Shown here piece after piece: positions 1 to 61,221 of a stretch of 64,000 nt of DNA. The number at the start of each line of letters is the position of its first letter. Position 1 is the stretch's first letter. This stretch comes from Gnetum montanum (Eukaryota; Plantae; Gnetophyta), in contig MNCI01000721.1 in assembly GCA_015680685.1 (NCBI GenBank), forward strand, positions 186,001 through 250,000, in the 5' to 3' direction. Both the position numbers and the translations under genes were made by a program. The notes beneath the pieces are model-generated. The model was not told the DNA's origin and ran no database searches. It saw only the letters and a program-made list of their open reading frames with translations.

Positions 1-307
1 AGGTGATAGAAAATATAATATTGTGAAAAACAAACCATACACTTTCCCTAATCTCTCAAAGATTAGGAAACACTTACACAAGTGATACAAGCTGCTAATC
101 CTTCCCATGCCATATGCATTTGTTGCTGTGTCACTTTATAACATTCATAGCCTAATAGCCTAGTTTACACTTATTAGTATCATTTCATTTCTCTTGGGTT
201 TAAATTTAAATTTGCTAGTAGGATAGAATTTATTTTGTTTGACATCCTTTTACTTTTTAAAACATTTTTGCATTTTCTTAATAAAAAATTTTTACTTTTA
301 CATTCTT

Positions 308-440
308 TATGGTCCACTAAGACCTTAAATTAGCATTGTGGCCTACCATGGCCTTAAACTAGAAAATACCACACAACCTGCTATGGTGTTAAACTAGAAA
401 ATACCACATGGCCTGCCATGGCCTAAAATTGGCAAAAAAC
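308..440 (+). repeat. Tandem array (~4 units) of ~30-33 bp TGGCCTGCCATGGCCTWAAAYTRG repeat
   Basis: Units such as gtggcctaccatggccttaaactagaaaa and atggcctgccatggcctaaaattggcaaaa. The same unit occurs at 54679-54800, 56924-56985, 57281-57341 and ~57995-58045. Confidence 0.85.
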
Positions 441-739
441 CATTATAACTTATTTTTTTTTATTCCTACAACTTTATTTCTTAGCCATTTCAACTTTTTA
501 TCGCATTTAGCAAACGTAGCCTTAGAACATAGATCATAAAGTAGCATCACAACATAAAGAAAATTGTAACTCTAGAACGTTATAGTTAGAATTTAATTTT
601 AGACTTAAAAATCAAAAATAAAAATGTCCATAACAACATAACCACGGCCACATAATGTGGCAAAGATATCCAAACAACAAAATGTTAAATAATAAACTAT
701 TTTGGCTAACACTAGCCATACATCAATAATGTTAAAAAA

Positions 740-3700
740 TCACATCAACTAAAATGGGCATAGAAGAAGCAACTGATGGAACTACAAAGCATTTGGTAAA
801 AGAGGTGGATCATCATCTCTATCCCCACTGCTAGGAATTCCTATGTCTCTTGGTGCCTATAACATGATAAAACCAAAACTAAATAACAACCAATAAACAT
901 CAAAATGAAAATTAATGAAATTAAAATTAAACAAGTTAACCTGAGATGGATTTGGAGCCATATGTTCTATGGGGAAAGTTAGAAGATCAACCTATAGATG
1001 GTGAAGGAGTTCATCTTCAAACATATTGGTCCAATCAACATCCCTAAGATCAAGACTTGTAAGAATGTTAATCTTGTCAATGTTGGTCCATGTAGGGGGC
1101 TCATGCAAGAAATTGCTTGAGGTTGCCTCTCCTAAGGAAATAGTAGTTTGATGAGTAGGAGAAGTAGCTACTATCACATTATTTGTAAATATATTATAGA
1201 TATCCTTTACATTAATTCCCATCATAAATAGCTCTAGCTTCCTCCACTCGATAGGCTCCTCCTGTAACCACTTAAGGTAAGCATCATGCTTAACCTTATA
1301 GACCCTCTTATGATCTTTTTGTTTATGATACCACTTAAGGATCCAAACATAGTAGTCCTTCCACTTACCAATCTTGTGGTTGATGAGATCGATATAAAGC
1401 TTCTATTATATGATTTATCTAGCAAGGGGGACATTACATTAAACTACATTCCAATAGCAAGAGAGTATCTCCTTAGTGTGTAAATATTCTTTGTTGCTTA
1501 CCTAAGCCTCTATGAAGTTTTTTCCATCCTTAAGATCTATTACCTCTTCTTTCAATTTCTTTTTCTTCTTCCTTAGTTCTATGACTTGTTTTTATAGGAA
1601 CTCATTAGAATGTCTATGTTCCCATAAAGACTTAGCACATGAGAGTGCACATCTAGTGGCACCATCATATAGTTTACATGGGACATTGTCCATATTGGAA
1701 GGTAAGAAAGAAAACATGTTGACCTTTACTAGCTTGTTAGGATCCCATCTTAGGTTAGGCACTATAACTAACAAAATGAAACTAATTAACAATGAAAACT
1801 TGATCATCAAGAAAACCAAGTAATAGATCAAAAACATAAAACATAAAATAAGTTAAAATTTTTATTGATCTTTGGTGTTATTGGTTATAACCAACTGATC
1901 ATATCTTTAGCTGCACCCTTCATAAATTCTAGTTTATTGGGGATTTTCACCCATGATTGCATGTAGAAGGTAGAAGTGGATGCTTCTACTTATGGTTCGT
2001 GAGCTACAACAAGTGCAGTAAACAATCAAATGATCATGACCATTACTAAACAAAAATCAATGAAACATGACATGTACAACACTTGGAATAGAAAATTACA
2101 AGTACCTAAAAATTCCTCTAATGTTGAAATAGGAGGTTTACTCATTTTTGGATCCTCTAGCATGGCATCAAAGTGGTCCATAGGGAAAAAAGGAGGAAAG
2201 GCCTTCTTATTTAATGCATCATCCTCATAATGCTTTAATATCTCTTACTCTTGATGCCTTATCTCCTCCTCCACTTGATGCCTTCACTTCTCTTTAGCAA
2301 CAGTTGCTATTGCTATAGCCTCCAACTCCTATTGCTTATCTACAAGAGGCATCAACTATAAAACATAGAGTAGCTTAGCACATCATATGAAACCACAAAT
2401 CAACCATAGCATTGAGAAAAGTAACAATAAAGAAATAAATCAACAAAATACATACCTCTTATTTCAGTTTGCATCCCTTTAAGCTTGACAATCATCTTTT
2501 TCTTGGGAGGTTCCCCAACTATTGGCATTACCTGCTCTACCAAATACCTCTTAAGTTTCTCCATGGATGTACCCTCAACCTCTGCATGCAAGCTTCAAAC
2601 CTTTTTAACATTAGCTAGTATGGTGAAGGCTCAGCCCCAATGCTATCAGGAGATCTACAATGTTTTCCATCACAATTCTTAATGGTGAGAGATACGGATT
2701 CATCTACAACTTTTGATGGACCTTGGGCCCTAGTGGTCATAGCAAGAAGCTTTACCTAGGGCTTGTCAAATTAGGATGAATCCTAGACAATCCATTGTCC
2801 ATCCTTTCTTACCATCGAAAACTCTACAAACCTCCACAAGTAAGTTGAAAAAAGTGCAAAATGCACATGACACTTTGTAGTGAGATTCTCATGAATTTTT
2901 TGAACCTCCAACAAAAGCCCAGAATCCAAGTGTGTGGCCTAGTTGAATAAGGTACACTCGATGAGTACTTACTTCATGGTCCAAGCTTGTTCCACATCCA
3001 GTATATTTCTCTATGATTATAACTTAGGATATGCTCAAGATTGGAAAAAAAAGATACATATCCCTAATTAATGACAATTTGATGTCTCTTAGAAGGTATC
3101 CCTTGCTACTATGATGAGTGTCAAACCATTCTTCTACTTCTTCCTGATGATCCACCTTGTACCCTGCTTTGGAAATAACTGACATGTCATCATTTAAGAC
3201 ACTGAAGAGATCATTAAATGTGGATGCATTAATGTCCAAAACAATAATCACACTATGAACATAGGTAATTAACCTTTGAACTCCTTGGTTAAAGGAGTTA
3301 AAAATGTTCAACATTTTTGCAATTGGGATGATCGGGCTAGGGGCAATGAAGAGGTCAAACAAGCCTGCATGGATGACCCTCACACGTATAGCATTGGGTG
3401 CTTGATCTGATAACTAGTCTTGTGAGGATTCCACCTCATTGAACTTAAGGATCATAATCTCCTCTATATATCTTGAAGTGATAACTGTAACTTTAGTAGA
3501 TGGAGTGACCACTGAAAAATAGAAAAAAGGTAACTCTTTAGCCTTTGCATAGGTGCAATAAATTATAATAGATAATTACATAAACAAAAAAAATAGCCTA
3601 ATAACCATATAAATAGAGAAATATTAGCATAAAATAAATAAATTAATAACACTTACTTTGCCTATATGACTTAGGCATTGTAGGAGCTGTAGATTGTGGG

Positions 3701-4560
3701 TCTAAGTCCAAATCATCAAGAGATGGGCTGGCCCACTAGCTATCTATCATCTTGTTTTGTAGTTATCTCTTATAGGACTTAGGATGATGCCCAATGCCAC
3801 TCTCAAGGTCCCCATGCAATTTATTCAACACTACAAGCCTCATGTTTGGGCTCTTAGTAATACCTCTAAAGCTATGTGAGCTAGGAGCAAAAGTGAAGTC
3901 AGCCTTGATTTGACCTTGATCATCCATCCTAAATATGCAAGCAAGTAAAATAATAGACCATACATAGTTATAATCTGAAATGCACAACAAAAAAGAAACA
4001 ACCAAGATAACAACATTGCTTATCCTTCTATGCGATAGATAGTGCTAGGAGGGTTTTGAACCATGTATGGGATCGATGAACAACAATCAAGGTATTGTTC
4101 AAGTTATATTGGCCAAATTCTGGTATCTCCCAAATTTGAGATAGTTTTTGAGCATCCATGGTAGTCATGTCATCATGATTCTCTCCTCCTTCATGAGCAT
4201 TAGGTTTATCAATAATAAACTTTACAATTAAATCAGAGGATTTGAGTAGGATGGTCTCCACGATCATTGCTACCACCTCCAACTTCAAGTGTGATCAAAC
4301 CATCATACTATAGCTTTGAAGTAGGTAGGCTAGGAAGTATAATTTCCCCTTCCTAAACCATATCCCAAATTGATCCCACTCCATGTTGGGGCTTGGGGAT
4401 TTAGGTGTTGGCATGTCAATGCAACACAATAGCCCCACCATCTCTATCACCACCAGAATAGACTTCAGGATGGCCTTGAGATGTTCAACCACAAAAATTA
4501 CAACCATACAAACTTTAAACCAAAACCTTATAACATATAACATACAGAATAACACTTAGT
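740..4560 (-). pseudogene. Degenerate spliced ORF of unknown function (coiled-coil C-terminal half), antisense to element D0
   Basis: Chain of minus-strand ORF fragments (4295-4555, 4028-4288, 3763-4005, 3024-3383, 2400-2591, 1592-1837, 992-1225). They are separated by T-rich GT..AG intron-like segments at 857-940, 2004-2105, 2356-2455 and 3512-3656. Many premature stops. Confidence 0.6.
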
Positions 4561-5509
4561 AAAAGAAAAAATCCAAAGTCTACAACCAACATTCCATCAA
4601 ATTTTACACTTAGCACCAAAAATAGCCATTGGAAAACATAGAGTAAAAAATATAAAATTTTTTTACTTTGATTTGAAAAAATTCTAGCCCCATTCTAACA
4701 TCTCAAAGTATCTCCAAGACCATGGGACATTGATAGAAAAAACTTTTCAAAACCTCAACGTTTCCCATCTTCAAAGAGGTAAATGCATCATAGCCTTATA
4801 ACCATGATTTTACATAACCAACTGGAAACAATGATAACTAATCAACTACTTAACAAAATTGGAAAATTACATAGCTATTGGAATCTTAAGACAAGGAACT
4901 ACAACCCCATAAAAGGAAATCATTAGAATTAATAACCAATTTTTCATAAAAATTTACCAAAATAACTTGACTGTAGTTGTCAACATGAACCCCCTTTCAC
5001 ATAGGGTTGGGAAACTATTTCCCAAAAATTTGTTTGAGCTTCAAGTGGAGTGATTTCACCACCATATGAAATATTAAATTGAACCATATGTGCCCATTAC
5101 CATAGAAAATTCAAAAATCTTATCATCTGTTCAGAAAAAATTCATGAACTTCCATGAAATCTGGAAAACGGTAAAGAACCCTACATACACAACCCAACTC
5201 ATACGGTCATAACTTCATCATTATAACTCCAAATCAAATGGGACCATAGCCATTAGGAAGATAAAGCATAATATTATGAACTCATAACAATAGATTTTGA
5301 AAATACGCATCTGTGTCCTTGGTAACAGATACACAAATTTGCTTTCTTTTTCATGCAAAAATCATAAAACTTGTAAAAGTTGACTTCATCTAGCCATGAA
5401 ACATAGCCAAAATGGCCAAACAAACTTCAATCCATTTAAAAAAACATCAAAATTAGGGGGTCATATTTTATTAAAATTTAATTTTGAGAATTCCTTCATC
5501 CTANCACCA

Positions 5510-6890
5510 ATGGATGGACTACATTGATAGTCATCTACTAATGAATGTCACTATAGTAGAAATAGTTATTATGAAATGGAAATGCTGCCACAAACTCACC
5601 AATAGCTAGAATACATTGAAAATAATCTAAGAAACAATCACTACTACACTAGTAGTGGTCAATAGTTAATGGCCAAGGTTGGTAGTAGATCATCAATAGC
5701 TAGACTACATTGGTAGTAGTCCACAGATGGTTGTTACTACACTAAATTTGAGCAAGAGTTAGTAGCAATGGAGGTAGAGCTCTTCACCAAGGCATATAAG
5801 TAAGGAAGTATAAAGAAAATACAATTTGTGAAAAGTTTCTACAAGTGTTACTAATTAAACCTAGGCATCCAATCCAAAACCTTGGTTTCCTTTTTGGAAC
5901 TCCACTTAACTTGGCCTCAAGATATGGAAACTAGGACTATGTCAGGGTTGTATAAACATTTTTTAAAAATTTCTATTTTTGAGTGGATCCCACACTAGGT
6001 GCTCAAAAAATAATGAAAAAGGCCATGACTACACTAAGCGTAGTTAGTCTTCCAACCAAACTACGTTAAGAGTAGTCAACCTAAGACCATAGAAAAATTA
6101 CAACATCTACCTACCTCTTCTAAACCATAACTTAGGCACCTTGTAACCCAAAAACATGGTTAGGTATGGTAGTTCTTGGGCATGAAACCAAGACTACACT
6201 GAAGGAAGATAAGGACTACATTGGGCCACTATAGTCCAAACCACTACCAGCATAGTCCATGATGGGATGAACTCCCAAAATCCTGTACAACCTCTAGAAG
6301 CCTCCAAACTAACTATCTAGCCTTTCCAAAACATGGCCAAAACACCCAATAGCACCAAAACTTGGTCACAAGCAGTCCAAATGTAACAAAAATCAAACCT
6401 CCTCATCAACTACACTCAAAAACGAGAGGGACTATGCTAGGCTAGCATAGTCCAACATCATATCTTATCTTCTTACAATCCCAAGCAACCCATCAAGTTC
6501 ATTCAACTCTCATTTGACTCCATATTAACACATTGTTTTCCCAAACCCTATTTTGAGCCTTTAGCAAGCCCAAAGCATGGTCAATTGTAGTAAATGGTGT
6601 CACTTTTTCCTTTTCCCTTGTGACTACACTAGGGAAATCAAGGACTACATTAGGCCAATTTAGTCCTAGCCTAGGACTAGCATAGCCCCCTTTAAAATTA
6701 TTACAAAAAATCTCAAAAACCATGAAACTTGACTCTTGCAAGCTCTAATATCCTACTTTGGACCTATATGGCCATGAAATCTACTTTTTTTTTTAACACT
6801 TTGATACTTCTCACCATGACTATGCTGGAAGAAGAGGAGGACTACATTGGGCTAGCATAGTCCCTACCTGAGCCCAACATAGTCCTCATA
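5510..6890. repeat. Dispersed array of GGACTA..TAGTCC palindromes and half-sites
   Basis: Perfect 25-bp palindrome ggactatgctag-g-ctagcatagtcc at 6429-6453. Three ~66-bp modules at ~6192-6258, ~6622-6687 and ~6818-6885. Further gactacattg/gactacact half-sites between 5516 and 6080. Confidence 0.8.
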
Positions 6891-9152
6891 GAATTAACAA
6901 GGTGACCAAGAACTATGCAAAGAAATAGTTGAAAAATCCAAAAACTCCATCCAAGGTTGCTTGACCACTAGTTTGTGGATTTTTGAACTTAGAAGGAGGG
7001 GATAAATAAGTTTTCCAAATTAAAACTTAAAGATACAAATCACACACCATAAACTTAATGTGGTTTTCAAACTTTGGTAGTCTACACTTGAAGGGTAGAT
7101 CACAAGCACATGTACAAACTTTGTTGCTCTCAAAATGTGATTGAAGGGTCCACATCCTATACTATTTTCAAGCCTTGCTCAAGAGTGCTATACCACAACA
7201 CCAATCACTCAATCCTACAAGGCCCCATTAGGCTTGGAAATGTGGTTTCAAGGCTTCCAAAACATTTCAATCTTGAACATCACACTAGAGTATTGTACCA
7301 TAGCATCAACAACTCAATCCCACAGGTTCTTGACAAGCTCAAGCACAGCAACCCTATAGGGAGAGAAGAATAAGAATTACAAGAGATAATTACAACTCAG
7401 CTTGTTGATCCTTGTATAGTTTTCTGACCTTTCGCAAGCTAGAAGGCACCATGCCCCCATGACTCAAGGCCATCACAATAATCATGACTCAATTCATTAC
7501 AAATATGAGAATAAATATCATTAGAGGTTTTGGTTTTGAGCTTTCCTTGCTCATGGAGGCTTGTCCTCATGCCCCATCATGCTTCCATCATCTGATCATC
7601 TTGTTGAAATGCTTCCCTTGCATCCCCATGATGAAAAATACCTACAATAAATAAAGAATAAGAAAAATAAAATGGATTATGATTTCTTAATCCAACTTTC
7701 TTTCTTTCTTCTTTTTCCTCTTCTTCACCTTCTCCTTCTTGGTGTTTGGAATATTACCACTTACCTTACTTTCATCATCTATCATGTAGATTACCTTTAT
7801 GTTGTACTTCCATTTTACAGCCAATACAATCAAATCCATCATTGCACTACACAAATTTATCATTGCTATAGTTAATAGTAAGCATCTCCAAATTTTGGAA
7901 AATCATATCATTATCAATGTCTTCACTCATATCAATAATGACCTTCTCACAATGACTATTCTAATAGCTATCATCATCAAACAATTTATTATTATTAGTA
8001 TTCCTCTTACTAACAATGGCATCAAAAGTCACAACATGACTCTCAATCCCATTACAATCATCACAATGATCATGATTCTCATCATTACCATTGAACAAAC
8101 CACTACCAAGTTGAAGTGAAAAACTAGCATCTATCACACTAGCTTCAACATGAGAGACATTAGTATCATCAACAAGGTCACTATTACTTACCTTTTCATG
8201 GCTTCTCCCATCCATAGTTTGTTCAAATTGATCTTCAATATGTGTTTGCCCAATTTCATCAAAGCTTGAAGATTCAAGATTCCATATAGGTTCCTAATTC
8301 CAATGGCTTCTCCTCTATAAAGGAATCAGCAACAAGCTCTTCATCCCACTTTGGAGGTACCAACTCAAAAGGAAAACTCTCCTTCATAGTTTTAACATCA
8401 ATTTTATCAAAAACATTGTTAAAGCAATTATTCTTCCACATACCTTTGCTAGAAGAATCACCTATCTCCAATGAGATAGTCTCAACTTGACTTAAAATCT
8501 CCTTTCCCTTGCCACAAGGTATAGAAAAATTGCAAAAAAAAATGATAATAATACCTTCTAGTTCTACCATTTATCCTCCTTGAAGAAGTCCCTTAATCTT
8601 TGCAACTCTCTTGGCTTTGATCCTTTACCTCCCATGACTCACAAGGTAGGAACTCTCCTTGATTAGTAGCATAAACCATCTTGGACTTTGAAGATCTCTT
8701 GGTCCCTATTATGAATCTCTTGGTTCCCTCCCTTGAAACCCTTGAGTATTGAGCACTCCTTTGCTCAATAAGAGATACTTGAGAACTCAATTCTCATTAA
8801 TCTCTACTTCATTAGATACTTCATCTTCCTTTCCTTCTTGATGGCTAGAATATATTCATTCAATTCTTTTCAAAATATTTCCCATGTTAGTCTTGAATTA
8901 CTCCATATCCCTTTGTGAAGTTTCTACAAAATCTTGGTGCTTGTGGACCTATACTTTGGGAATAAATTCTTGCATTTTAATCACAAAAGCTTTAAAGGAG
9001 TTCTTAAACTGTTGAAGCTCCTTTCTAAGATCTTGATATGTCTTCATATTTGGAGTCATATCTAAAGCAACAAGAATGGTATCCAAAAGAAAATACAAAA
9101 ACATCCACAATAATGTTTCTTTCATTCAAAGAAAACATCAAGCTTCAACATA

Positions 9153-9265
9153 NNNNNNNNNNNNNNNNNNNNNNNNNNNNNNNNNNNNNNNNNNNNNNNN
9201 NNNNNNNNNNNNNNNNNNNNNNNNNNNNNNNNNNNNNNNNNNNNNNNNNNNNNNNNNNNNNNNNN
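9153..9265. other. Assembly gap (113 N)
   Basis: Run of N. Single N joins also occur at 5504, 9760, 27666 and 33635. Confidence 0.98.
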
Positions 9266-9930
9266 GTCTTTCCAAAGACATCTTTCCTAAAGTGAAGATG
9301 TCTCTAGTCCATATAGGACATCTTCCAAAAATAGTATATGTCTCTCCTAAAAGTAGGTATTTCATAGTAAACATTCTAGCAAAGCTAGAGATGACCCAGA
9401 TGCATGAGAAAACTTCCAAAAACACCATTCCAATCCAAGAAATAGCCAAAGCAAGATGAAAATAGCCAAGGAGAAGGTGAGAAGACTTGGGAAACAACTA
9501 GAGAACCTCTAGTTGAGTTGAGGAAAGGTTTCTAGGGCTTTTACCTTTTGGTTGCTTATAAATATTGATGTCTTTCATCATTGTTAGTGTTACAATGCCA
9601 AGTGCCAAAGTTCCAAGTGTTGAAGTGCCAAGAGTCAAAGTCCAAACACTAAAGGAAAAACATCCCAACAAAGGAAAAAAGAGAGAGCTCTTAAGGGAGG
9701 AGAGCTTGTGGAGGAAGAGAGCTTATGTAATGAAGTTGAGTGAAAGGCAAGGGAGAACANGATTGGAATGGTGTTTTTGGAAGTTTTCTCATGCATCTGG
9801 GTCATCTCTAGCTTTGCTAGAATGTTTACTATGAAATACCTACTTTTAGGAGAGACATATACTATTTTTGGAAGATGTCCTATATGGACTAGAGACATCT
9901 TCACTTTAGGAAAGATGTCTTTGGAAAGAC
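9266..9930. repeat. Perfect 170-bp inverted repeat (9266-9435 / 9761-9930), probably a mis-oriented contig
   Basis: The arms are exact reverse complements (the ORF track gives identical peptides on opposite strands). Each arm starts immediately after an N. Confidence 0.9.
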
Positions 9931-10180
9931 ATCTTTTTTTTTTTTTTTTTTTGCAAAGACATCTATCTTGAAGGTTCCGAAAACAAAAATGCTTGTTTTG
10001 ATGCCAAGATCCTCTCGATGCCTTCCAACAAGTCCCCACAGATCTTGGAACCTCCTAAACTCATCAAAATAAGCCAAAAATATCCTAAAACATGCCAAAA
10101 CACTCAATAATAATCCTCAATAAAATCATTATAAAAAGACATAGTATGTAGGGTAGAGTAAGTGAATAGGAAGAGCTATC

Positions 10181-13100
10181 CCTGTACCAATTGCTAAAAT
10201 GGTTTGTCCACAATCACCAATTTTAAGGAAGCTCTAGCTCTTTTGATCTTTGGTCTATGAATTTGACATTTGTAACATCTTTTAATTTTCAAATTAATAT
10301 CTTGGTACATAGTAGGCCAATAAAAACCACAATGAAGTATCTATTACATAGTGAACTTAAGAGATTCTTAAAATAAATTAGAATGATCATGAAATTGTTC
10401 TAAGACAAGACCAATTTGATCATTGTGAATACATTCCAACAAAAATCCTCTAAAATCCTTTCTATATAAGATTCCATTTTTAATCATAAATTTATTTATC
10501 TTTTTAAAGAAAGCTATCTTTTCACTAGGAGTTAGGTTATTTGGAACCTTTTGCATATCAAGAAATTCTAGAATCTCATCATACCAATTTCCCTCATGAA
10601 TCTTTATCACACATACTTCATATTCCTTAGCCATTAACTTGGCTAATCCCATTCCTTTAATAGTTTTTCATATTTCCAATGAAAATCTAAAGCTTTGAAG
10701 CTTTATGAGCCACTTTCCTCTCTTCAATCCAATTTCATTTTGGGATAAGAATTGTTTGACTATAGGCTCTATTAGCATAATATGAACTAATGGATTTTCT
10801 AAATAATATTTTAAATGTTGAAGTGCCTTAATAACTATGAATGCTTGTTTCTCTAAGTCTAAATACTTTAGAATAGAACCTTTCAATTGATATCCAAAAA
10901 ATCCAATCAATTCATCCAAATCCTTATTTCTTTGAGTTAGAATGGCAGAAATTGAATCATTTGAAGTGAAAGCATATAATCAAAAGTCTTCTTTTAATGT
11001 TGGCTTTACCAAGTATGGAGCTTCTTGAATGACTTTATTAATTTCTGCAAAGGCTTTCTTTGATTCTGGCATTTTCTCTACTAGAACATCTTTCTTTAGC
11101 ATATGCATCAAAGGTTTAGTAATTTCAATGAATCTAGGATAAATTTATTAACAAAATTTATCTTTTCAAAAAAATATCTAAAAAACATTTTACTTGTGGG
11201 ATGCTTGATATTTTGTGTTGCTCAAATTTGAGAATTATCTATAACAATTTCTCCTTGACAAATTACATGGCCTAGTAAACATTAGATTTAACCCCAAATA
11301 TACATTTCTTAGGATTTAATGAAATATCATACTAGGGGTATTTGTCAAAAACTTGTTGAAGATGATCAATATAGTCTTCCTTCCTTTTTAAAAAGATGGT
11401 AATATCATCCAAATAATCCTTGAAAGGTTAAGTCCATTATTCTTTGAAAAGTAGCTCTAGTGTTTGACAATCCAAATGACATTGTTTGGTAAGTAAAAGT
11501 TCCCCATTTGGTAATAAATGTTGTTTTATATCTATCATCCTTATCTACCATGATTTGATTATAGCCTAAAAGACCATCTAAGAAAGAATATATCTGATAA
11601 CCTGATGCTTTAATCAACATCTCATTAATTCTAGGAAGTGGATATTTATCTTTTTCAAGGCTTCATTCAAATTTTTGAAATCCACACAAAGTCTAATATC
11701 ACCATTCTTCTTTCTTACTGGTACAAAGTTAGCAAGCCATGTCGAATATTAAATCAGATATATGATTTGAGCTTACAATAACTTTTTGATCTTAGCTTCC
11801 ATAGTTGTTCAAATGATGGATTAAATTTCCTTTATTTTTGCTTAACTATCTTATAACCATCTATTAAAGGTATTTTATGTGTCATCACCTCTAGTTGAAA
11901 AGCTTTAATATCATCATAAGACCAAGAAAAATTTTCTAAATTATTTTTTCAAAAGTAATAATAAATTTTTATTGAAAATTGAATCCTTTTCCTTTGTAAT
12001 ATTCAACATCTTTGGCATCTTAGTAATCCAAAATTCACTATCTCATAATCTTGGTGATCTAGATTCTATATATTCTTTTTGGTAAGTTGATTTTTACTAA
12101 ATTCATGTTCATGATCAATCACCCTTTTGGGAATTAAATTTATCTAAAACCTTGATGTTGTTTCAGGTATGATTTGACCTTAAAATTCTTGTTTATTCTT
12201 TAAGAATCTAAGCAATTGATCATCATCTTCAAATACTTGTAAATGCATTATGTTATTTGATATTGATGGTTGCTATTCATTCTTGATTATTATACCCTCA
12301 TAACCTTCTATCTTTTTCACATCTAATGTTCAAGTTGCTTTTGCTAAGTCATTTGCTATATAATTATCCTTCCTACATATATGTTCTATTTGATAATGAT
12401 GAAATTGATCCAACATTTTATAAATGAGTTATTTATAGGGTAGAAAGAATGAGCTTTTTACCACACAATCACCTTCAATCTATTTACAAACTAATCTTGA
12501 GTCTTCTTTTATGCTGATTTCCTTGATTCCTTTTTCCAATATTGTCTTAATTCCAGTGCATAAAGCTTCATATTTAGCTTTGTTATTCGTACAAGTGAAA
12601 GATATATGCCTTGAATATTTTTGGAAAATCATCTTTTACTAATACTATTCCAACTCTTGCACCTTTGGCATTACAAGAATCATCAAGGTATAGTTCCCAT
12701 TTGCTCCCATCTTGGAATTCCTCTTTTTCCAACTTAGAAACTTCTTGAAGTATGCAAAATCTAGTTTCAAAAGATTTTGTTTCAACAACTTTATTCTTTC
12801 CATTTGAAGTAATGTTTTCACTCATCAAAGGCTTAATATATATGTATATTTGATTTCTTTTCCCTTTCCAAGGTAGCCACATCTAGGAATAATTTATTTA
12901 AATGTAACTTGAGAAATTCTTACTCCAACTTCTACCTAGCAAAAGACTATGTGAATCTTGTATGTCTACCACTTGAATTGTTACTCTACTTTTGATACGA
13001 GGTTTAGAAGTGATTTTAATAGAACATTACTAACCCACAATCTTCACTTGAATAATCTTTTTATTTGATTTTTTAGGAATCAAATTGAGTTTTTTGCATA

Positions 13101-14830: not shown

Positions 14831-14933
14831 ACTCAACATAATATCTAGTTTCTTAAGCTCTCCTAGCAACAAAAAAAAAACTATTGGTGTGTTAGGACTA
14901 TCAGTCTTATGAACTTAGAGGAAAAAAATTCTA

Positions 14934-14950
14934 CCCTCCTTCTAGTGCCA
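14934..14950 (-). promoter_or_regulatory. Primer-binding site of element A (TGGCACTAGAAGGAGGG)
   Basis: TGG-initiated motif 7 nt inside the LTR end. The cognate tRNA was not identified. Confidence 0.6.
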
Positions 14951-25995: not shown

Positions 25996-25996
25996 A

Positions 25997-48729: not shown

Positions 48730-50184
48730 TGAAACACCACTAAATTTTCATGTTGCAACCTTTGTAACATCATGCCATGAAGCCCAAGGCAAAACTTCAT
48801 TGTAAATGTGATGATTATAACCCATGAGGTGCAATCTCACATACTTTACACTTTTTGGGGCTGAAAAATGCCTCATAAGTGGTCAAAGCCTTATCCCCCA
48901 AGGGAAAAAATCCATGTTATATCTATATTTGGGCTTGGGTGGGTTAAAAGGCCTTTTGGGATGCCAAAATTGGCATTTTGATAGATTTTATGGGGTGTAT
49001 AGCATTGCCTACATTAAAGACACCTACCGTCAACTAGGATGCATGGGGGGAAAGCTCACTTACCCCCAGCTTGGATGCATGGTGAGAAAGCTCACCTACC
49101 CCCAACTAGGATGCATGGGGGAAAGCTCACCTACCTCCAACTTGGATGCATGGGGGGAAAGCTTACCTACCTCCAACTTCGATGCATGGGAGGAAAAATT
49201 CCCTTCCTCCCTCTCCTCCCGCGCCACACCCAAACCAACCCCCAACCAACTCCCAAACATGGAAGCTTGCCTCCCGTAATGTGGAAACTACATGCCCCTA
49301 ATGTGGAAGCGACAAAAACTAGATTTCAATACTCCATGCACTCCAACATTGATCCAACATGCTAGTGGAGAAGGTCGAAGGCATAGAGAAGATCTATCTC
49401 TAGTGTAGATGTCATTCCCCTATTACTATTTATAGTAAATGGAATGGCCATGGGGGTTTGGCACTTACTATATATGGTAACCCCCAACAGTTTGGCACCT
49501 ACCCCACCTAAAGTGTAGCCAAAATTTGCAGCCAAACCATAGCCAATTTGCAGAAAAATTAAGGCCAAAACCTATAAAACCTCAATACTATTTCAAGGTT
49601 CTACATTTTGGCAATTCCACCCCCTTTGCACTAACATACTTTGGCATTTTTGGCAAGCATTTTTGCATTCAAGAGCTTTGAACACACACAAAGCCTCTTG
49701 AATCCCCAATGTGGAACCCTCTTTTTTGGGCAACTACTCCCCTCCATAGCCGTTGTTACATCCCCCTATAACACCCAGTGTTGTAGATCTAGTGCAAGGA
49801 GTAGCAAAGGTTTGAAAGCATTGGGATTTGTGGATCATCTGAATCATGGAGCAATGGATTCCAAGCCCCACTGAAGTGAACCCCCTACCCCTAGGCACAT
49901 TTTTGTACACATTTCTCAAATTCATTCTTTATTCCTTTTTAAATAAAGTTTAAGGTTTCTAGTTTTGTGTGCAATCTGCATTTACTTTTAGTTTCCTGGA
50001 TCTGTAATCTTTTTGAATTTTTATTTTTACAATCTTGTTTATCATCATCTAAGTCCCTAGGTGACCTACTAGACTATCTAGGGCACCCTAAATCCCATTT
50101 TTTGGAGGCCCTCAGGATTCAAGGTTAAAGTTATTGTGCTGAGATTTTTGGTTTTCTAGCGATTGAATTTTTTTAGTCACTATA
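48730..50184 (+). repeat. 5' LTR of element D
   Basis: Begins TGAAACACCACTAAATTTTC, ends TTTTAGTCACTATA; collinear with 59797-61221. Confidence 0.93.
49020..49195 (+). repeat. ~33-bp tandem repeat (x5) within D 5' LTR
   Basis: Unit cttggatgcatgggggaaagctcacctacccccaa; mirrored at ~60088-60300. Confidence 0.92.
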
Positions 50185-50999: not shown

Positions 51000-53900
51000 A
51001 ACATGTCTTTTAGTTGATCAACCATGCTACCTCTTAACCTCACAAACATGGTATCTAACCAAGATGCAATTCGTATCTATGATCCAAAAGACCCTACAAT
51101 CATAGAATGGAGGAAATTGCTTAGGCAAAGAGGCAAGAATCCAAATTTCATGGTAATAAATGAGGAATCCTACAACTTCCTCTATGCTAGAATACAAGCT
51201 AGTCTCTTGATATCATGCTTAGAATCTAATGCTAAGTGTCAATTTGAAATCATAAGCTAGGATGGAAAAGAATACATTGCATCCTCCTATGACCAAGTCC
51301 CCCTCAAAAAATTTTATGTGTAAATTCTCATACAACTCATAGAGGCTAATGAGTTTAGTGATGAAACTAGCTTAGAGGATCAACCAGGAATGGAAGATGA
51401 GTTTGAGGCTACACAAGAGTTGGACACCTTCATTGGAAGTTATTTCCAAAATTTGGCTCCCCAAGCAACCATGTCCAAATCCACATTTCTTACCTCATCA
51501 ATGGAACAAGTCCTTAGACCCAACTCTCCTCCTATTCATGCTACCATGTTTGGATCCACACCCATTATTGCAACACAATAGACACAACCCATGTCCCAAT
51601 CCACATCCTTATTCTCATCGATACCCTTTGCCACACAACCTAACTTCGTTCACCCAGCCATGATGATGTTTACATCATTATCTCTCTTTTCCATGCTAAT
51701 GGGACTCTTGTTGGGACCCCAAGTAGCACAAGCATCTCATACCCCATTTGTCCCCTTCATGCCTGTGGATCTAGCACAAACATCCTTTTCCTTGTTTGTC
51801 CCACCTATGACCACCATAATCCAACTACTCCCTTCAATACCACAACCTATCATGAGGCTACAAGCCTATCAACTACAAATCTTACAAATTTTTTCTCGAT
51901 TGTCAACATAAGCACCGTAGCCTATGGGGATGCCCGAAGGCTTGGATCAAGCTTTTCAAATGATCCAAGACCTTAATGAAGAGCTGTAAAAACTTAAAGC
52001 CAATGTAACTCAAATGGTCAAGGTTCTAAATTTATACCAAAATGATCCTATAAACCGTATGATACCTTAAATAACCTTTCCCGTAGGCTTGACTATTTTA
52101 AACTTCACCAAATACAATGATGAAGGGGATCCTAATGCACATCTAGTAACCTTCCAATCTAAGTGCCTATTCTTACAAGATTGTCCTCATGCGGTATTGA
52201 GGATCTTCTGCATGTCCCTCAAGGGTAAGGCTGTAGATTGGTATCAAACCTTGTCTAAATGTTTCATCTCTTCCCTTAAGGACTTGATTAGCTAATTTGT
52301 CAACCACTTCAACTACAACTTGAAGTTGGATGCCACATTGGATCAACTAATGTAGATGAGGTAGGTGCCACTTAAATTAGTCAAAAGGTTCATTCACCAG
52401 TGGAACTCAACACTCAATAAGATCCTAGAGCCTATCATTGAAACCCACCTTTTGGCCATCTAGAAGGAAGCAGTAAATGACTTTATGAAGTTAAATTTGT
52501 ACTACCTAGAGCCCTAGTCCCTAAGCCAAGCCTTCTCACAAACCAAGAACATTGAGGAGGCAACTAAGGCAAGCAACGACCTAACCTATGTGGCCTACAA
52601 AAAATAACATGCAAGAAGGGATAGAAATAGGGCTAAACAAGAACATACAACTATGGTCATAGTAGCAAAAGAGCCAAAATAGGTAGAGAGAAGAGGATCA
52701 CCACCATGTAACACATCCCCTGACTCATTGCAACCATCCACTTCCTATGCCCCAAATCAACCAAGACCAAAATTTGGATGTAAGGATAGGTCTTAGTATA
52801 ATAGGTTGCCTATGAAGCCCTCTAAATTCTTAGAACACTTACTTAGAGACAACCATGTACAACATAAGAAACTTTCTGAAGAGGCTTGTAAGAGGTACGA
52901 TCATCTTTGTGACATAGCTAGAGATCCAACAATAGCTACCAAAGATGATCATAAGCTACAAAAGTACTTTAGGATTGATAGGTACTACCATTATGATCAA
53001 ATGTCTGGTCATAACACCAATTATTACCTAGCATTAAAGGATGACCTCTAAAAGATGATAAACCATGGAGAGATGGTAATGAATGAGCCCAACTCTCCAA
53101 TATTTGGTGATAACTCCTATATTGTGGCCTCATTCATGGAAACCAAATGGTCTAATCCCCCTAGGAAATCATTTGTCATCAAAGTGCCACCACAATCCCA
53201 AAGCACAAAGCCTAGAGAGCCCTTCATTATACAAGTACCACCTCCTTTGACCCCTAATGAACCTTTCATCATACATGCTCCCCCTTCAATGACTTCAACA
53301 TCACAACATAATCAACAAGTTGTCAATCCTCAAAAGCCTAAGGAACCCTTTGTTATCAAAGTTACTCCACCTTCAACAAGTAAGGACACAATGACACATG
53401 ATCAAAGCCCACATATAGTGGCTCACAACTCAGAGGTTAGCAAGAAACCATCATCACAATGGTAGCGAAAGCAACCTATCGCCAAACCAACATAAGCCCA
53501 TTGAAGGTAATCAACCAAGACCTACACCAAGACCAACTATATCCATGGACAAGCTACCCAAAGCACATACATTGCAACCCAAGTCACAAACCCAAGGGAG
53601 AATGGAGAAGGTTAGAACTACTAAGGCTAAAACATCACAAGCAAAGGCAAAAAATTTTCTTATAACCATGGACCAAGCCAAATGATCCCTTAATAAAAAG
53701 AACACATCCACAAACTTGTATGGCCTAATCATAACCTCTCCCATACATAGGGATGAACTAGCTCAAGTGTTAACCTCTATCCCTGTGAGCAGAGACATGC
53801 CCACCAATAGAGAGTCAATTCCACTCTATCATTAAGAAATCTTCACTTAGGGAAAAAAGCATTAACCCATGCTTAAATTCTATGATAGCAACGTGAAGAT

Positions 53901-54390
53901 TGACACTAGAAATGGGGAAGTGCTACCTACTCCTCTCCTCATCACTATATGTGTTGGCAAATACATAGTTCACTATGTTTATGTGGATGATGAGGTAGCC
54001 ACAAATGTGATACCATACTCCATCGTTGATAAGTTGGAACTAACTAAGAACATCCAAGCAACCACCACCTCTACACTTAAGTCATTTAATGGCTTACAAG
54101 TAGTAGTGCAAGGTTCCATCACTTTGGATTTCATAGTTGGTAAATAGTTTCCCACATCCACCAACTTCTTAGTAGTTGAAGAGACACCTAGCTTCAACTT
54201 GATCCTAGAGAAACCATGGTTGGTGAAGCTTTGGGTGGTTTCATCTCCTATACATCAGGAGATTCACTTGCCATATGCAAGTGAGGAGATTGTGATCCTT
54301 GGGGACAATGTGTCACTACCCTCAATTAACTATGTCAACATTAATAGAGTTTCTAAGGTAGAGTTTCAAGAGGAAACTCCTAACACTTAG
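51000..54390 (+). pseudogene. gag: gag-protease of element D
   Basis: KYNDEGDPNAHL..RIFCMSLKGKAVDWY (52089-52295); decayed knuckle YYHYDQMSGHNTNYYLALKDDL (52980-53050); protease YVDDEVATNVIP..FNLILEKPWL..SSPIHQ (53869-54300). Confidence 0.85.
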
Positions 54391-54678
54391 ACTGGGGCCA
54401 ACAACAATGTGAGTAATGCCAACTCTGTGACACATGAAAACCAACAAAAATGCCTACAACTCGACATACTAAATAAGAGAAACGATGACCATAAGATTAT
54501 GCCAAAAAGATTTCTTGATATCTCAAAGATCAAGCAAAACATTTATGGTAAACATCTTATCCTTTCCTTCACTAATAGTTTATTTACCTTTACAACATTA
54601 TATCATGTTTCAATGTTGCTTCTAGCCTTATGTGCTCTTTTGAGGACGTTTCATTCTTGCTAGGCAAGTATAAACCTT

Positions 54679-54800
54679 ATGGGTAGCTAAGGCCTAAAAC
54701 TAGAATTACGGTCCACTATGGCCTTAAACTAGCAATGTTATGGCCTGCCAGGGCCTAAAATTGGTGAAGCCATGACCTGTGAGGGCCTAAAATTAGTAAG
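54679..54800 (+). repeat. ~31-bp repeat array left of the cargo in D
   Basis: Four units of (a)tggcctgccagggcctaaaattgg-like sequence; same family as 308-440. Confidence 0.85.
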
Positions 54801-55633
54801 CATAATGACCTTTCAGCCAATCTACCAAATAGCATTATACGCAAGTTTACTTATATGTGTTTATTGTGGTTTAAAATTATCACTATGTCACATTTTATCT
54901 ATTGGCTTTATCTTATGACCTTGTTACATTTACTACTTATGTTTATATGAAATGTATAAAACATAAGAATTTAAAACTAAGGTGTAGTTGAAATCACACC
55001 ATGCGATGAGACAACCATATACCTACATAAATGTCCAAAGTCATGTCTGCATTATGTAACATTCAACAACAAAGACAATGTGAGGTGTTTGTGACTAATA
55101 TAACCAAATGAAAATAGATGCGACAATGATCAAAGAACTAGACATAGCTAGTGACTAAGCCATAAGTGGAGAGAGGGAGATCAATGCCATTGACATTATT
55201 GTCACCATTACTACCAACTTCATTACTATTAACACTCTCTAGACAAACAAATACTAATGCAAACTAAAAAAGGTAGGAGCATGGAATTCATCCAAAGAAA
55301 AATGATTCCTTATATGGAAATCACCTTCCAAACGAAAAAGCACTAATACTATACGGGGAAGGTAAAATTAGCAAAAGGGTCCACATACTATACCATTGCA
55401 CCACATTAGACCAAAACCATTAAGCCACTTTATTCTACACTGAGAGCTATGGTTATAAAATATACTATTGTCGTAATGTTTGAAAGTATGACCAGTGAAT
55501 AGCCATAAAAATAAAATGACAAATTTCTAACCCCAGCCACAAATGCTCCTAAAACAATCAAACCGACACTACTAAATTTCATATTCAAAATGTGTAGAAG
55601 GGAATTACTCTACTCTAGTGTCGTGTTTATTCA

Positions 55634-56030
55634 GTGACCAGGCAGTATGACTTAAGCTGGGAGAGTTCAGTTTTTGTTATTTCCATTTTGGTTATTGCCG
55701 CACTTTCTTTGATATTTGGGGTTGCGGCGGAGAACAAGAAGCTAGCTGCTAGAACACCCATCATAGGCAAAAGCATCACTATTTGCAAATACCCTTTTGA
55801 TCCTTCCATTGCCTTAGGCAGTATTGCAGTTGTATCGTTGTTGTTATATACACTTCTTGGCATTGCTTCTGTGTTTCATCTCTACGATGGACAATTTGTT
55901 CCTGCTCATGATTTGCAGAAGACCACAACCCTAGTGCTCTCATTTATTATTGCATTTGTTGTTTTTGTGTTTGCTGAGGCCCTTTACTTATGGGTGTTAA
56001 TCACTGAAGGTTTCCACCAAAATAATAATA
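55634..56030 (+). pseudogene. Captured DUF1218 membrane-protein gene fragment (AENKKPAS-type subfamily), C-terminally truncated
   Basis: LSLIFGVAAENKKLAARTPIIGKSITICKYPFDPSIALG..LYLWVLITEGFHQNNN matches, from memory, the plant DUF1218 subfamily motif LSFxxGVxAENKKPASGTPIxGKxVxICKYPSDPTVALG..LWPTITEQLH. The C-terminal CPTAKTGL segment is absent and there is no in-frame ATG. Confidence 0.85.
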
Positions 56031-56923
56031 GCCTGCAGTGGGCTATGCTGCCACTACAGAAACCCTATGGTCGCGCTAGCTGCCGCCTTTTGCTGCTTAA
56101 TCCCTCACTCGATCATCGTCTCTGCAATCAGCCTCTCTGTGCCGTGCCATGAAAAATCCTCCACTACTGACTTGCCACAGTCCTCCAACCATGCCTGCTT
56201 TGTGCCGTCCCACCACTATAACCCTCATGTGTGTTGTCCCTGCCCTACGCCTGCAACCGCCATGCCGCTCAGCCTACGGTCGCACTACCACGCAACCCTG
56301 CGACAGCCCTGGCTGTGGCCCGCCCACCCAGAATGCCACCATCACCAATCACGGCAGCTTTGATCTGTTATTTTATTGTTACCATATAAAAAACTTTGAT
56401 GTATTGCCACGCCGTCCATTCTTTGACGTTCTAAATTAAATTAAATGAAACTTAGATGAATTACTTTCATACTTGTATTACATACCTATAATCCCACTAT
56501 TGATTCCACTGTTTTATGCCTAACACCTTTAATTATCATTATTTTATAACCTTAATTTATACTACTATTATCCACTCTTCTTCATCATACTCTACATTTT
56601 GCTACTACACATCTTTCATTCTCATCTTACACATTATCAACTATCTATATTTGCCACCTTTATCAACTTATGCTATACTACTTTTTTATAAAAAATAGAA
56701 ATAAAAATAATTAATTAATTAATTAAAAATTTGTTGTTGTTAACAATGTTATATTAAATTTAATGCCTAGTCCACCATGTTTTATTTTGTTTTTGCTCAA
56801 TTTTATCTTACCTTTTATTTCTATCCTATTTCTTACCATGGTATAACTTCATTTTACATTATCTCACCAAGCTCTACCTAACTTCTACCTCATGATAACC
56901 TCGCCAATGAAAATGCCAACACC

Positions 56924-58045
56924 ATGGCCTGCCAAGGCCTTGAATTGGCAATCTTATGCCCCGCCAAAGGTCTAAAACTGACACTATGCAAACTCATTTT
57001 ACCACTCTTTTTCATCATTTGGCATCATTTGGACCTTGATTCACTTAATTTGACATTATTTGAATCAACAAGGCCTTATTTGACCCTTATTTCACACCAT
57101 GCTACATGGTTTTAACCATGATTTGACCTTTATTTAATCTCATTATGCATAATTTGACATTTGTCTTACCATATTCACCTTATTCTCTTCCTTTTGACCT
57201 TTATTGATCACATTTAGCCTTTGTTTAGCCTTTAATTGGTGTTAGGTAATGGGTTTGATCACTTCTAACCATTATTTAACCATGGCTTGCCAAGGCCTAA
57301 AATTGGCAATATGGCTTGCTAAGGCCTAAAACTGGCAAAACTATAATCATAGTTGACCATGTTTGACCTTATATTACCCTTATAACCTTTATTAGCCACA
57401 TTTAAGCCTTGTCTGGCCTTTACTATAATGTTTTGACTTATTTAAGCATTATTATTAATGTGTTTTTACATTATCTTCACATTATTTAATCATTTTATTA
57501 CACAGGTGCAGCTTGATGTGCTTATGTTGTCATATAGATTGAGTTAGGAGGATAAGGAAGCAAACACGACTAGCCTTAAAGCATAAGTAAATCCCTCTTG
57601 TGATGTTGTTAGGCCAAGTTGACCTTAAAGCCATTTTACTCTACATCCATTGGACCTTGAAGCAACCTGATGATCATTAACCTTGAAGCCAAAAACATCA
57701 TGGAGGGTCCCTTAGTCGAAATTCCCACCTCAGACCACAATGCTGAGGAGAAAATACATGAAACCAAGTTCCTCATGAAAACTTAAGCCTACCCAAGACC
57801 ACATCAAGCCTATGTTATGCAGCATTAAAGCCATCATATAGCCTCAATTATGCCTAACACTCACATGTTTGTTTGTAGTGTTGTTTATCATTGTTGATAG
57901 GTTGTAACAAATGATTGACACTAACAACTTTGATTATCTACAATGAGTGAGCCTACATGGCATCTTTGCATAATAGAGGAAAATCTTTGTACAATCTGCC
58001 GAGGTCTTAAACTAGTACCATGATCCACCATGGCCTTAACCTAGT
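56924..58045 (+). repeat. Further copies of the ~30-bp repeat right of the cargo, plus tttgaccttt-type degenerate repeats
   Basis: atggcctgccaaggccttgaattggcaat (56924), catggcttgccaaggcctaaaattggcaatatggcttgctaaggcctaaaactggcaaaa (57281-57340), and ~57995-58045. Confidence 0.8.
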
Positions 58046-58339
58046 AACATTGGTGACCTAGGTGGCTTGGTTATATCATTTCATGTGGCTTGCATGCATT
58101 GTAACATTATAACATGTTCTTCTTGCTTGGTTTTCATGTCCTCTTGGAGTTGTGTTTGTAGGATGAAGCTTGCAACCATTACAAGGGTGGCACTCATTAC
58201 AGCAACCAGTCAAAACATGGCTTTAATGTGCAAAATTCAGTGAGTCTATTCTGCTTTGTCAAGAGTGCTTGTACCATTGCCCTCTATCTAGCACCATTCC
58301 TTGAGCCCAACCTCATAGCCTAAATATAACCTTCCTTAC

Positions 58340-59181
58340 TAATGAGGGGCGAGGTACCCCTACACTCAACCATACGAATACGAGCGTTACACGAGCGATC
58401 TGGTCAAACTCTACAGACGGACTAGTTGTGGCATCTAAATAGTTAGCCTTAGGTCGCAGTTCGCTATTTTCCCACCTAGAATAGTATTATCTTTGTCACG
58501 TATGGTTTAGTCCAGAGTGAGGTGTGTGATGGGTTTCTAATCTAATGCTACTCATGGAGGCAATGGAAAGTAATATTAACTAAGCTAGGAGAGAAGGGTG
58601 AGAGAATCTAAACTAGCCTAAGTGCTATGAGCATCCGTTCCTTGATTATCCGTACACATCTTGGACTTCCTGCACAACTACCACTGGGATAACCAAGTGT
58701 AGATCCTAGGTATGCTACTGGGTTACCAAGTAGTCACACTTAAATGCTTGTAATCAAGTCGTACTCATTCCACATTTAACATGAGTTTAAGGGTGAGAGA
58801 GATTAACTAGGAAAGAAATAAATAACAATACCAATTAAATAATTAATTAATTAAACTAAGTGAATGCTGCAATGATGAAGTAATCTCGATCTTTATTTCC
58901 GGTCATGTGCATGTCCAAGTACGTCACACTCAAATAAGGATGTCGTACAATTACAATCACCACACTATAGGCATACACGGAGAAGAAAAGGGGTGAGAGA
59001 AGAAAATAAAAACACTAAAAACTAACTAACTCTAAAATTGACAAAAAAGCTCACTATCGGATCTGTCTACCTCTTATTTATAAATGAGGAGACAGGCCAT
59101 GATATCGCGTATGTGATATCGTGGGTTGGGCTACGATATCGCGTACGTGATATCGTTGTCGCCCCAAATGACGACTCATCA
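58340..59181 (-). mobile_element. Solo LTR of the B/C family nested in D
   Basis: Start taatgaggggcgaggtacccctacactcaaccatacgaat matches the B LTR start; ends ctcatca; exact TSD CTTAC (58335-58339 / 59182-59186). Confidence 0.88.
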
Positions 59182-59796: not shown

Positions 59797-61221
59797 TGAA
59801 ACACCACTAAATTTTCATGTTCTAACCTTTGTAACCCCATCCCATGAAACCCAAGGTAAAACTTCATTGTAAATGTGAGGATTGTAACCCATGAGGTGCA
59901 ATCTCACATACTTTACACTTTTGGGGCTAAAAAATGCCTCATTAGTGGTCAAAGCCTCATTCTGCAAGTGACAAAAGTCATGTTATATCTATATTTGAGA
60001 TTGGATAATTAAAAATTCCTTTTGGGATGCTAAAATTGGCATTTTTGATGGGTTTTATGGGAGTTATAGCATTTTATACACTGAAGACACCTACCCCTAA
60101 GTAGGATGCATGGGGGGAAAGCTCACCTACCCCCAACTTGGATGCATGGGGGGAAAGCTCACCTACCCCAAACTTGGATGCATGGGGAAAAAGTTCACTT
60201 ACCTCTAGCTTGGATGCATGGGGGGAAAGCTCACCTACCTCGAACTTGGATGCATGGAAAAAAATCTTACCTACCTTCACCTTGGATGTATAGGGGGAAA
60301 CCTCTTCCCCATCCAAAACCCCCCTCCCAAACATGGAAACTATATGCCCCTAGTGTGGAAGCCACAAAGACTAGATCTCAACACCCCATGCACTCTAGTG
60401 TTGATCCAACATGCCAACATAGAAGGTTGAAGGCCCAACATAGAAGATCTATCTCTAGTGTGGATGCCATTCCCCCATTACTATTTGTAATAAATGAAAT
60501 GGCCATGAAGGTTTGGAACTTACTATATATGGTAACCCCCTACATTTTGGCACCTACCCCGCCTAAAGTGTAGCCAAAATTTGCAACCAATTTGCAGCAA
60601 AAATTAAGGCCAAAAACCTATAAAATATAAACCCCAATACCATTTCAAGGTCTCACATTTTGGTAGTTCCACCTCCTTTCTACTCACATACTTTGGCATT
60701 TTTGGCAAGCATTTTTGCATTCAAGAGCTTTGAACACACATAAAGTCTCTTGAATCCCCAACATGGGATTCCCTTTTTTTGAGAAATTACTCCCCACCTC
60801 CACATGTAACACCCAACGTTGTAGATTTTCTGCAAGGAGTAGCAAAGGTTTAAAAGCATTGGGAGTTGTGGATCATCTAAATTATGGAGCAACAGATTCC
60901 AAGCTCCACTAAAGTAAACCCCCTACTCCTAGGCACATTTTTGTACACATTCCTTAAACTCATTCTTTATTCTTTTTTTAATAAAGTTTAGGGTTTCTAG
61001 TTTTGTGTGCAATTTGCATTTACTTTTAGCTTTCTAGATCTGCAATCATGTTGCATTTTTATTTTTACAATCTTGTTTACCCTCCTCTAAGTCCTTAGGT
61101 GATCTTTTGGACCATTCAAGGCACCCTGAATCCCATTTTTTGGAGGCCTTGGGGATTTAGGGTTAAATTTGTTGCATTGTGATTTTTGGTTTTCTAGTAA
61201 TTGAATTTTTTAGTTGCTATA
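59797..61221 (+). repeat. 3' LTR of element D
   Basis: Collinear direct repeat of 48730-50184, including the 33-bp tandem array (one additional unit). Confidence 0.93.

What the first reader, a model, noticed from the sequence alone, without database searches (positions are those of the whole stretch)
1..6970. Variable cargo slot: two copies of one non-autonomous LTR family carry different genes after the same repeat array
Seen: the window start resembles D just downstream of its protease, followed by the same ~30-bp GGCC-rich array. After the array, D0 holds a ~4-kb spliced antisense ORF plus palindromes, whereas D holds a host DUF1218 fragment closed by more copies of the repeat. Inference: this gag-PR-only family has a repeat-bounded position where cargo is exchanged (template switching or repeat-mediated recombination), acting as a gene-shuttling vehicle. 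I know of no description of this specific arrangement, but cannot confirm novelty.
Basis: partly seen in the sequence, partly recalled or inferred. Interest (0 to 1): 0.8.

Follow-up and report, generated by a model that had tools for sequence, protein, structure and literature searches.

The report
Plant retrotransposon relatives with different tails
Two old, broken plant jumping genes share only a short repeat stretch; one carries scraps of two host genes behind it and the other a multi-copy, likely spliced backward gene with no known relative, which probably reflects the known variable tail of such elements rather than a dedicated gene-swapping slot.

Summary
The parts are real; the "one family, one exchange slot" reading is overstated. 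D (48730-61221) is a complete, old LTR element (5-bp TSD, LTRs about 83% alike) with decayed gag and protease and no pol. D0 (1-6970) shares with it only about 430 bp: a weak pre-array match and the same ~30-bp repeat (66% alike). No D LTR, leader or later repeat copy occurs in D0, so D0 is a distant relative and is not repeat-bounded. D0's antisense gene has six T-rich intron-like segments, is decayed, has no database hit and is multi-copy along its whole length in two species labels: a standing feature of its own family, not host cargo. Array plus antisense ORF, gag-protease-only elements and multi-gene capture by LTR elements are all published. The six-intron orphan gene is the one fresh item.

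The parts
1..306 (+). D0: end of an ORF (stop at 83-85) and pre-array stretch, distantly homologous to D 54473-54676
   Evidence: summed contig depth about 3800-5000
307..435 (+). D0: four units of the ~30-bp GGCC repeat
760..4306 (-). D0: decayed antisense gene, predicted 7 exons (about 4306-4026, 3929-3657, 3512-2456, 2359-2106, 2003-1895, 1768-941, 857-760; edges +/-2, start and end uncertain), stops and frameshifts, no homologue found
   Evidence: blank searches; multi-copy
5517..6870 (.). D0: dispersed palindromic repeats (GACTAC...TAGTC type), upstream of the antisense gene
6970..7300 (.). Start of an unrelated very high-copy repeat that cuts D0 off; no D0 3' LTR seen in the window
   Evidence: depth rises from about 400 to 22000; copia-like by eye only, no Pfam hit
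48730..50184 (+). D 5' LTR (TSD GGAAT at 48725-48729)
51024..53051 (+). D gag, one frame, 15 internal stops
   Evidence: Retrotrans_gag E 0.021, below cut-off
53866..54390 (+). D protease-like stretch, catalytic motif degenerate
   Evidence: 28% over 99 aa, E 0.046, to the protease of another element in the window; no Pfam hit
54677..54806 (+). D: four units of the ~30-bp repeat
55377..55570 (-). D cargo 1: antisense piece of a nucleotide-sugar transporter gene (PF03151), residues 162-226 of the best hit, one frameshift
   Evidence: E 9e-11, 78%; tblastn; host RNA reads
55643..56029 (+). D cargo 2: sense piece of a DUF1218 gene, cut at 56029 where host transcripts run on
   Evidence: Pfam E 8e-6; RNA depth and loose ends
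56030..56350 (.). D cargo 3: GC- and CpG-rich stretch of unknown origin
   Evidence: GC 0.57, 10 CpG in 56100-56299; no Pfam hit
56921..57498 (+). D: further repeat units inside an old tandem duplication (56921-57175 ~ 57279-57496)
   Evidence: 64% by blastn; 0 of 200 shuffles
58340..59181 (-). Nested solo LTR of a very abundant family, TSD CTTAC
   Evidence: (joints skipping 847 nt, depth 1.4-2.9 million)
59797..61221 (+). D 3' LTR (TSD GGAAT at 61222-61226)

Best explanation
D is an old pol-less LTR element carrying a decayed patchwork of host-gene pieces behind a short tandem array, and D0 is a distant relative sharing only that array region, whose likely spliced backward gene is a multi-copy standing feature; together they likely show the known hypervariable 3' region of Tat/Athila-type gypsy elements, not a dedicated exchange slot. 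Steps: (shown) a common ancestor had the ORF tail plus array; (inferred) the lineages diverged long before D inserted, since they are less alike (60-66%) than D's two LTRs (83%); (inferred) the D0 lineage kept or gained an antisense accessory gene that would be transcribed from the palindrome-rich side and spliced, and spread with it to tens or more copies; (shown) D holds pieces of at least two host genes in opposite orientations; (inferred, about 0.5) these were patched in at the DNA level, as the antisense piece starts at an acceptor-like site, versus about 0.35 for RNA template switching; (inferred, about 0.5) the patchwork then rode along as D's subfamily was copied by an autonomous partner; (shown) all ORFs are now broken and the RNA reads over the cargo come from other loci.
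For: D structure. No pol in D or D0 while the same pol query hits other elements of the window. Limited D0-D homology. D0 gene region multi-copy throughout (28 bins to 6832 all covered; 489-6832 summed depth 122-2657 against 5-14 for near-identical single contigs) in two species labels, and a 341-nt contig bridges array and downstream region (294-642). Cargo composite; 7 of 24 listed contig pieces bridge the two gene pieces at 84-92% identity. At cargo sites such as 55700 all RNA reads (118 of 118, 152 of 152) differ from the window. Literature: Retand elements have arrays next to pol plus antisense ORFs, family-specific (PMC11963269); extra ORFs of non-chromoviruses are highly heterogeneous (PMC6317226); multi-gene capture by LTR elements incl. 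Bs1 (PMC5131818); GAG+AP-only elements are TR-GAG (PMC6022998).
Against: D0's LTRs, gag and protease lie outside the window, so it is not shown to be an LTR element; its lineage label rests on layout and recalled motifs. Depth is no copy number, and D's own leader is also shallow (251-376; single sites 32-427 against 29-296 in the cargo), so how common the cargo is in D's subfamily is open. 3 of the 7 bridging contigs run on for 251-837 letters unlike D, which fits an independently mobile patch. The acceptor reading at 55570 is inferred; the parent gene's intron positions were not seen.
Confidence: 0.62

Rival explanations
1. One reading: one gag-protease-only family with a repeat-bounded slot at which cargo is repeatedly exchanged by template switching or repeat-mediated recombination.
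For: Both variable regions begin right behind homologous arrays; repeat units flank D's cargo on both sides; contigs mix units of D's first and second arrays (table 5c); array deeper than either tail; module exchange among non-autonomous families is reported (PMC13570524, passages).
Against: D0 and D share only about 430 bp at 60-66%; no D LTR or leader match near D0; no repeat unit behind the D0 gene; only two tails known; the antisense gene has no host homologue.
Confidence: 0.12
2. D's cargo is a separate DNA-level mobile patch (Helitron- or Pack-type) that inserted behind the array and has copies elsewhere in non-D flanks.
For: Pieces of different genes in opposite orientations, GC-rich piece, acceptor-like edge; 3 of 7 bridging contigs continue unlike D; such capture is common (PMC13317346, passages).
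Against: No inverted termini above chance (196 of 500 shuffles) and 4 nine-mer direct repeats against 4.3 expected; cargo depth near that of D's leader.
Confidence: 0.3
3. D0's antisense gene and palindromes come from a DNA transposon (multi-exon accessory gene with subterminal repeats, as recalled for CACTA or MULE elements) that inserted behind the array of a D-like element and was then amplified with it, or on its own.
For: Seven predicted exons and dispersed palindromes; no LTR seen for D0; nested-TE origin is named as a possible source of such ORFs (PMC7264820).
Against: No transposase-type Pfam hit; no terminal repeat at either edge; array-to-downstream link in another copy; the same review finds no support for that origin in known cases.
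Confidence: 0.15
4. D0 is the 3' half of an autonomous element: its first 80 bases are the end of integrase, and D arose by deletion of pol, joining protease to that end.
For: Position just before array and antisense ORF is where pol ends in Retand elements (PMC11963269); faint likeness to integrase ends (recalled).
Against: No Pfam hit for either tail; upstream DNA not available.
Confidence: 0.25

Closest known systems
Retand and other Tat-clade gypsy elements with long pol-3'LTR regions (Vicient 2025, PMC11963269: parts 1-2 of 5, passages and end of section 11 read; Vicient and Casacuberta 2020, PMC7264820: parts 1-2 of 3 read)
   Same: Short tandem array next to the coding region, then a 3-6 kb stretch with an antisense ORF kept across the family; some clusters lack domains.
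   Different: No TRP28/Transposase_28 or PMD hit; six predicted introns ('intron' occurs 0 times in the Retand paper); no RT to place it; LTRs of D0 unseen.
TR-GAG non-autonomous elements (definition seen in PMC6022998, passages; original paper not read)
   Same: D has LTRs, TSD, gag and a protease-like stretch, no RT/RH/INT.
   Different: 12.5 kb with a long 3' region, arrays and captured host pieces; gag and protease hits are below Pfam cut-offs.
LTR-mediated multi-gene capture, maize Bs1 and animal pseudo-LTR elements (Tan et al. 2016, PMC5131818, passages; Jiang and Ramachandran 2013, PMC3726574, abstract)
   Same: Partial pieces of two or more host genes inside a non-autonomous LTR element, further copied.
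   Different: One piece is antisense and starts at an acceptor-like site; intron loss and junction microsimilarity could not be tested.
Pack-type DNA transposons and Helitrons (review PMC13317346, passages)
   Same: Patchwork of gene fragments in mixed orientation.
   Different: No TIR or TSD found; Helitron ends not established.

Membership tests
LTR retrotransposon (D) | Two direct LTRs and a target-site duplication | tested here: met
   LTRs 48730-50184 and 59797-61221, 82-83% alike, GGAAT on both sides
LTR retrotransposon (D) | PBS and PPT | tested here: inconclusive
   No clear PBS or purine tract by eye; no tRNA library test run
TR-GAG (D) | GAG or GAG+AP present | tested here: inconclusive
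   Retrotrans_gag E 0.021, 15.5 bits under cut-off 24.1; protease only by weak pairwise match
TR-GAG (D) | No RT, RH, INT | tested here: met
   pol query 10277-14400 hits other elements but not D
Same family as D (D0) | 80% identity over most of the internal region or LTR (80-80-80 rule, recalled) | tested here: not met
   60-66% over about 430 bp only
LTR retrotransposon (D0) | LTRs, TSD, gag | not testable with these tools
   5' part outside the window, no genome held; 3' part cut at about 6970
Retand (D0) | RT clusters with Retand; aRH between RH and INT | not testable with these tools
   No pol in 1-6975
Retand (D0) | Antisense ORF and tandem array in the 3' internal region | tested here: met
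Retand (D0) | TRP28 domain in the antisense ORF (97% of clusters) | tested here: not met
   No such Pfam hit in the exon translations scanned; decay may hide it
Pack-MULE / Pack-CACTA (D cargo) | Terminal inverted repeats and TSD | tested here: not met
   age could erase a TSD
Helitron (D cargo) | 5' TC, 3' CTRR with hairpin, A/T target (recalled) | tested here: inconclusive
   Candidate ends by eye at 54820 and 56771; no control run
LTR-mediated retrocopy (D cargo) | Loss of parent introns, microsimilarity at junctions | not testable with these tools
   Parent genes' genomic sequence not available; RNA is colinear over the pieces

The most novel reading that the evidence does not exclude
A superfamily of pol-less Tat-like elements uses the 30-bp array as a fixed junction for swapping whole 3' modules, and one module is a new class of retrotransposon accessory gene: antisense, six introns, its own palindrome-rich promoter, no homologue among 1.84 billion proteins.
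Probability: 0.15. Interest if true: 0.62.

Novelty: new variant of a known kind. Interest (0 to 1): 0.32.

Why it matters
As it stands it adds one more example of host-gene scraps carried by a non-autonomous LTR element, and a candidate multi-intron antisense accessory gene. The origin and function of antisense ORFs in plant LTR elements are open, and a review asks for spliced antisense transcripts to be looked for (PMC7264820); a six-intron family would give intron positions as markers of where such genes come from. A proven exchange junction would show targeted rather than random capture, but the evidence here does not reach that.

Tried and rejected
No genome held, so no leftward extension or copy catalogue. 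Antisense protein searches were blank: P0001 'longer' proteins, 1.84 billion representatives, PDB for P0002, Pfam (only a weak RhopH3_C hit under cut-off, rejected). The DUF1218 ORF also gave no hit in the search for homologous proteins despite its Pfam match, so blanks are weak; the transporter piece did hit plant proteins. Single-sequence fold of P0002 had pLDDT 33, not searched. The protein atlas gave no result. No RNA holder listed. RNA laid on D0: 48 and 124 reads, 48 and 123 only partly laid, no joints, from 26% and 2% of two runs: no verdict on expression or splicing. A 62-nt inverted match around the cargo fell to chance. A weak match 54810-55290 to the 3' backbone (1 of 200) vanished with local-composition shuffles (179 of 500). 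A 16-nt inverted repeat at the junction of the two gene pieces is at chance level for the region. Literature searches for a spliced antisense ORF in plant LTR elements and for multi-gene capture in Tat subfamilies found no description of this arrangement; the library lacks most subscription papers (the Bs1 paper was not held; Steinbauerova 2011 and Macas 2009 were not read) and no supplements were read, where Retand or REXdb element lists could hold such a case.
Full report
Setting. The window is plant-like, repeat-rich DNA; no genome is held. Evidence from outside came from public runs of the same and related species labels, protein searches and papers.

Element D. Self-comparison shows a direct repeat pair of about 1.45 kb, 82% alike; exact ends 48730-50184 and 59797-61221 are flanked by GGAAT on both sides; identity 83%, K2P about 0.19 on an alignment that includes some flank. 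Inside lie a one-frame gag with 15 internal stops (Pfam E 0.021, under cut-off) and a protease-like stretch (28% over 99 aa to another element's protease, E 0.046). A pol query from the window hits several other elements but neither D nor D0. D is thus a complete, old, pol-less element. It also holds a nested solo LTR at 58340-59181 with its own TSD, skipped by joints in other copies.

Relation of D0 to D. The array 307-435 matches 54677-54799 at 66% (0 of 300 shuffles), and units are as alike between elements (0.72, 32 pairs) as within D (0.71, 28 pairs). The 306 bases before it match too (0 of 500, controls at chance). Nothing else does: 441-900 27 of 300, 4500-6970 8 of 60, no translated hit, no hit of D's LTRs, leader or last backbone piece in 1-18500 and one marginal hit (E 0.019) of the other backbone piece. 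The repeat profile finds no unit after 435 in D0. At about 6970 an unrelated repeat begins (depth about 400 to 22000). So D0 is a distant relative, less like D than D's LTRs are like each other, and its LTR nature is untested.

The antisense gene of D0. Six minus-strand segments of 83-144 nt are T-rich (49-60% against 24-31%), all end in AG, four start with a clean GT and two have degenerate donors; 4 of 5 low-GC troughs coincide with them; the 828-nt exon keeps one frame with 7 stops (1 of 2000 shuffles). It is broken by stops and frameshifts. No homologue was found. Contigs of two species labels cover all of 489-6832 at summed depth 122-2657, mostly under 95% alike, against 5-14 for near-identical single contigs, and one contig bridges the array and the following 200 bases. 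It is therefore a standing feature of a multi-copy family. RNA gave no verdict.

The cargo of D. Besides DUF1218, 55570-55377 on the minus strand is a nucleotide-sugar transporter piece (E 9e-11, 78%; residues 162-226). Host RNA covers both pieces, differs from the window at the listed sites in nearly all reads, and runs on beyond 55570 and 56029 where the window does not; the loose end at 55570 reads as the preceding transporter residues, while the window there shows an acceptor-like edge (inference). A GC-rich piece follows. Seven of 24 listed contig pieces bridge the two genes at 84-92% identity, three of them continuing for 251-837 letters unlike D. Cargo bins have depth 30-237 against 2700-25000 for gag, protease and array bins, but D's leader has only 251-376, so the patch is rare in the wider superfamily yet may be common in D's close subfamily. 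No TIR or TSD stands above chance. The downstream repeat units sit in an old tandem duplication of the backbone.

Mechanism. Most likely both elements descend from a Tat/Athila-type ancestor whose region behind the array evolves freely (label from layout and recalled motifs). One lineage carries an antisense accessory gene; D's lineage lacks it and gained a patchwork of host pieces, more likely at the DNA level (about 0.5) than by template switching (about 0.35), then spread modestly. A dedicated, repeat-bounded exchange slot is not excluded but rests on two tails in two distant lineages (0.12).

Known work. Arrays next to pol plus antisense ORFs are typical of Retand elements (PMC11963269); extra ORFs fall into 314 unrelated groups in gypsy elements (PMC6317226, passages and section 13); family-wide ORFs differ from rare transduced genes (PMC7264820); GAG+AP-only elements are TR-GAG (PMC6022998); multi-gene capture by LTR elements is described (PMC5131818; PMC3726574 abstract; PMC13317346); module exchange among non-autonomous families too (PMC13570524). 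Searches found no account of a multi-intron antisense gene in such an element or of this arrangement, within a library that lacks most subscription papers. Earlier scan notes: none on this genome or sequence; three on other genomes touch antisense cargo or antisense introns, one gave the lead to PMC5131818.

Verdict. Observation partly confirmed, interpretation partly supported, new variant of a known kind, interest 0.32; the orphan six-intron gene is what deserves follow-up.

Noticed in passing
window 11300-13150, minus strand: Gypsy element with domain order protease, RNase-H-like domain (RVT_3, E 7e-11), then RT; PMC6317226 gives this order for the TatI/TatII clades of club-mosses and gymnosperms.
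   Followed up: partly
window 58340-59181; related LTR pairs at 18588-19374 and 25996-26772: Solo LTR of an extremely abundant family nested in D, with TSD; reads of other copies run on into a PBS-like motif.
   Followed up: partly
window 9266-9435 and 9761-9930: 170-nt perfect inverted repeat next to a 113-N gap; likely an assembly artefact.
   Followed up: no
window 49021-49196 and 60088-60304: 36-bp tandem array inside both LTRs of D, with 4.9 and 6.0 copies.
   Followed up: no
window 43167-47324, minus strand: Fairly well preserved LINE: DUF4283, endonuclease and RT domains.
   Followed up: no
window 57480-58170: Several sense acceptor-like sites after T-rich stretches in D's 3' backbone, by eye; may mark spliced transcripts of the D family.
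   Followed up: no
window 19788-25000 and 30353-34829: Two related elements in opposite orientation, 66-71% alike over kilobases.
   Followed up: no
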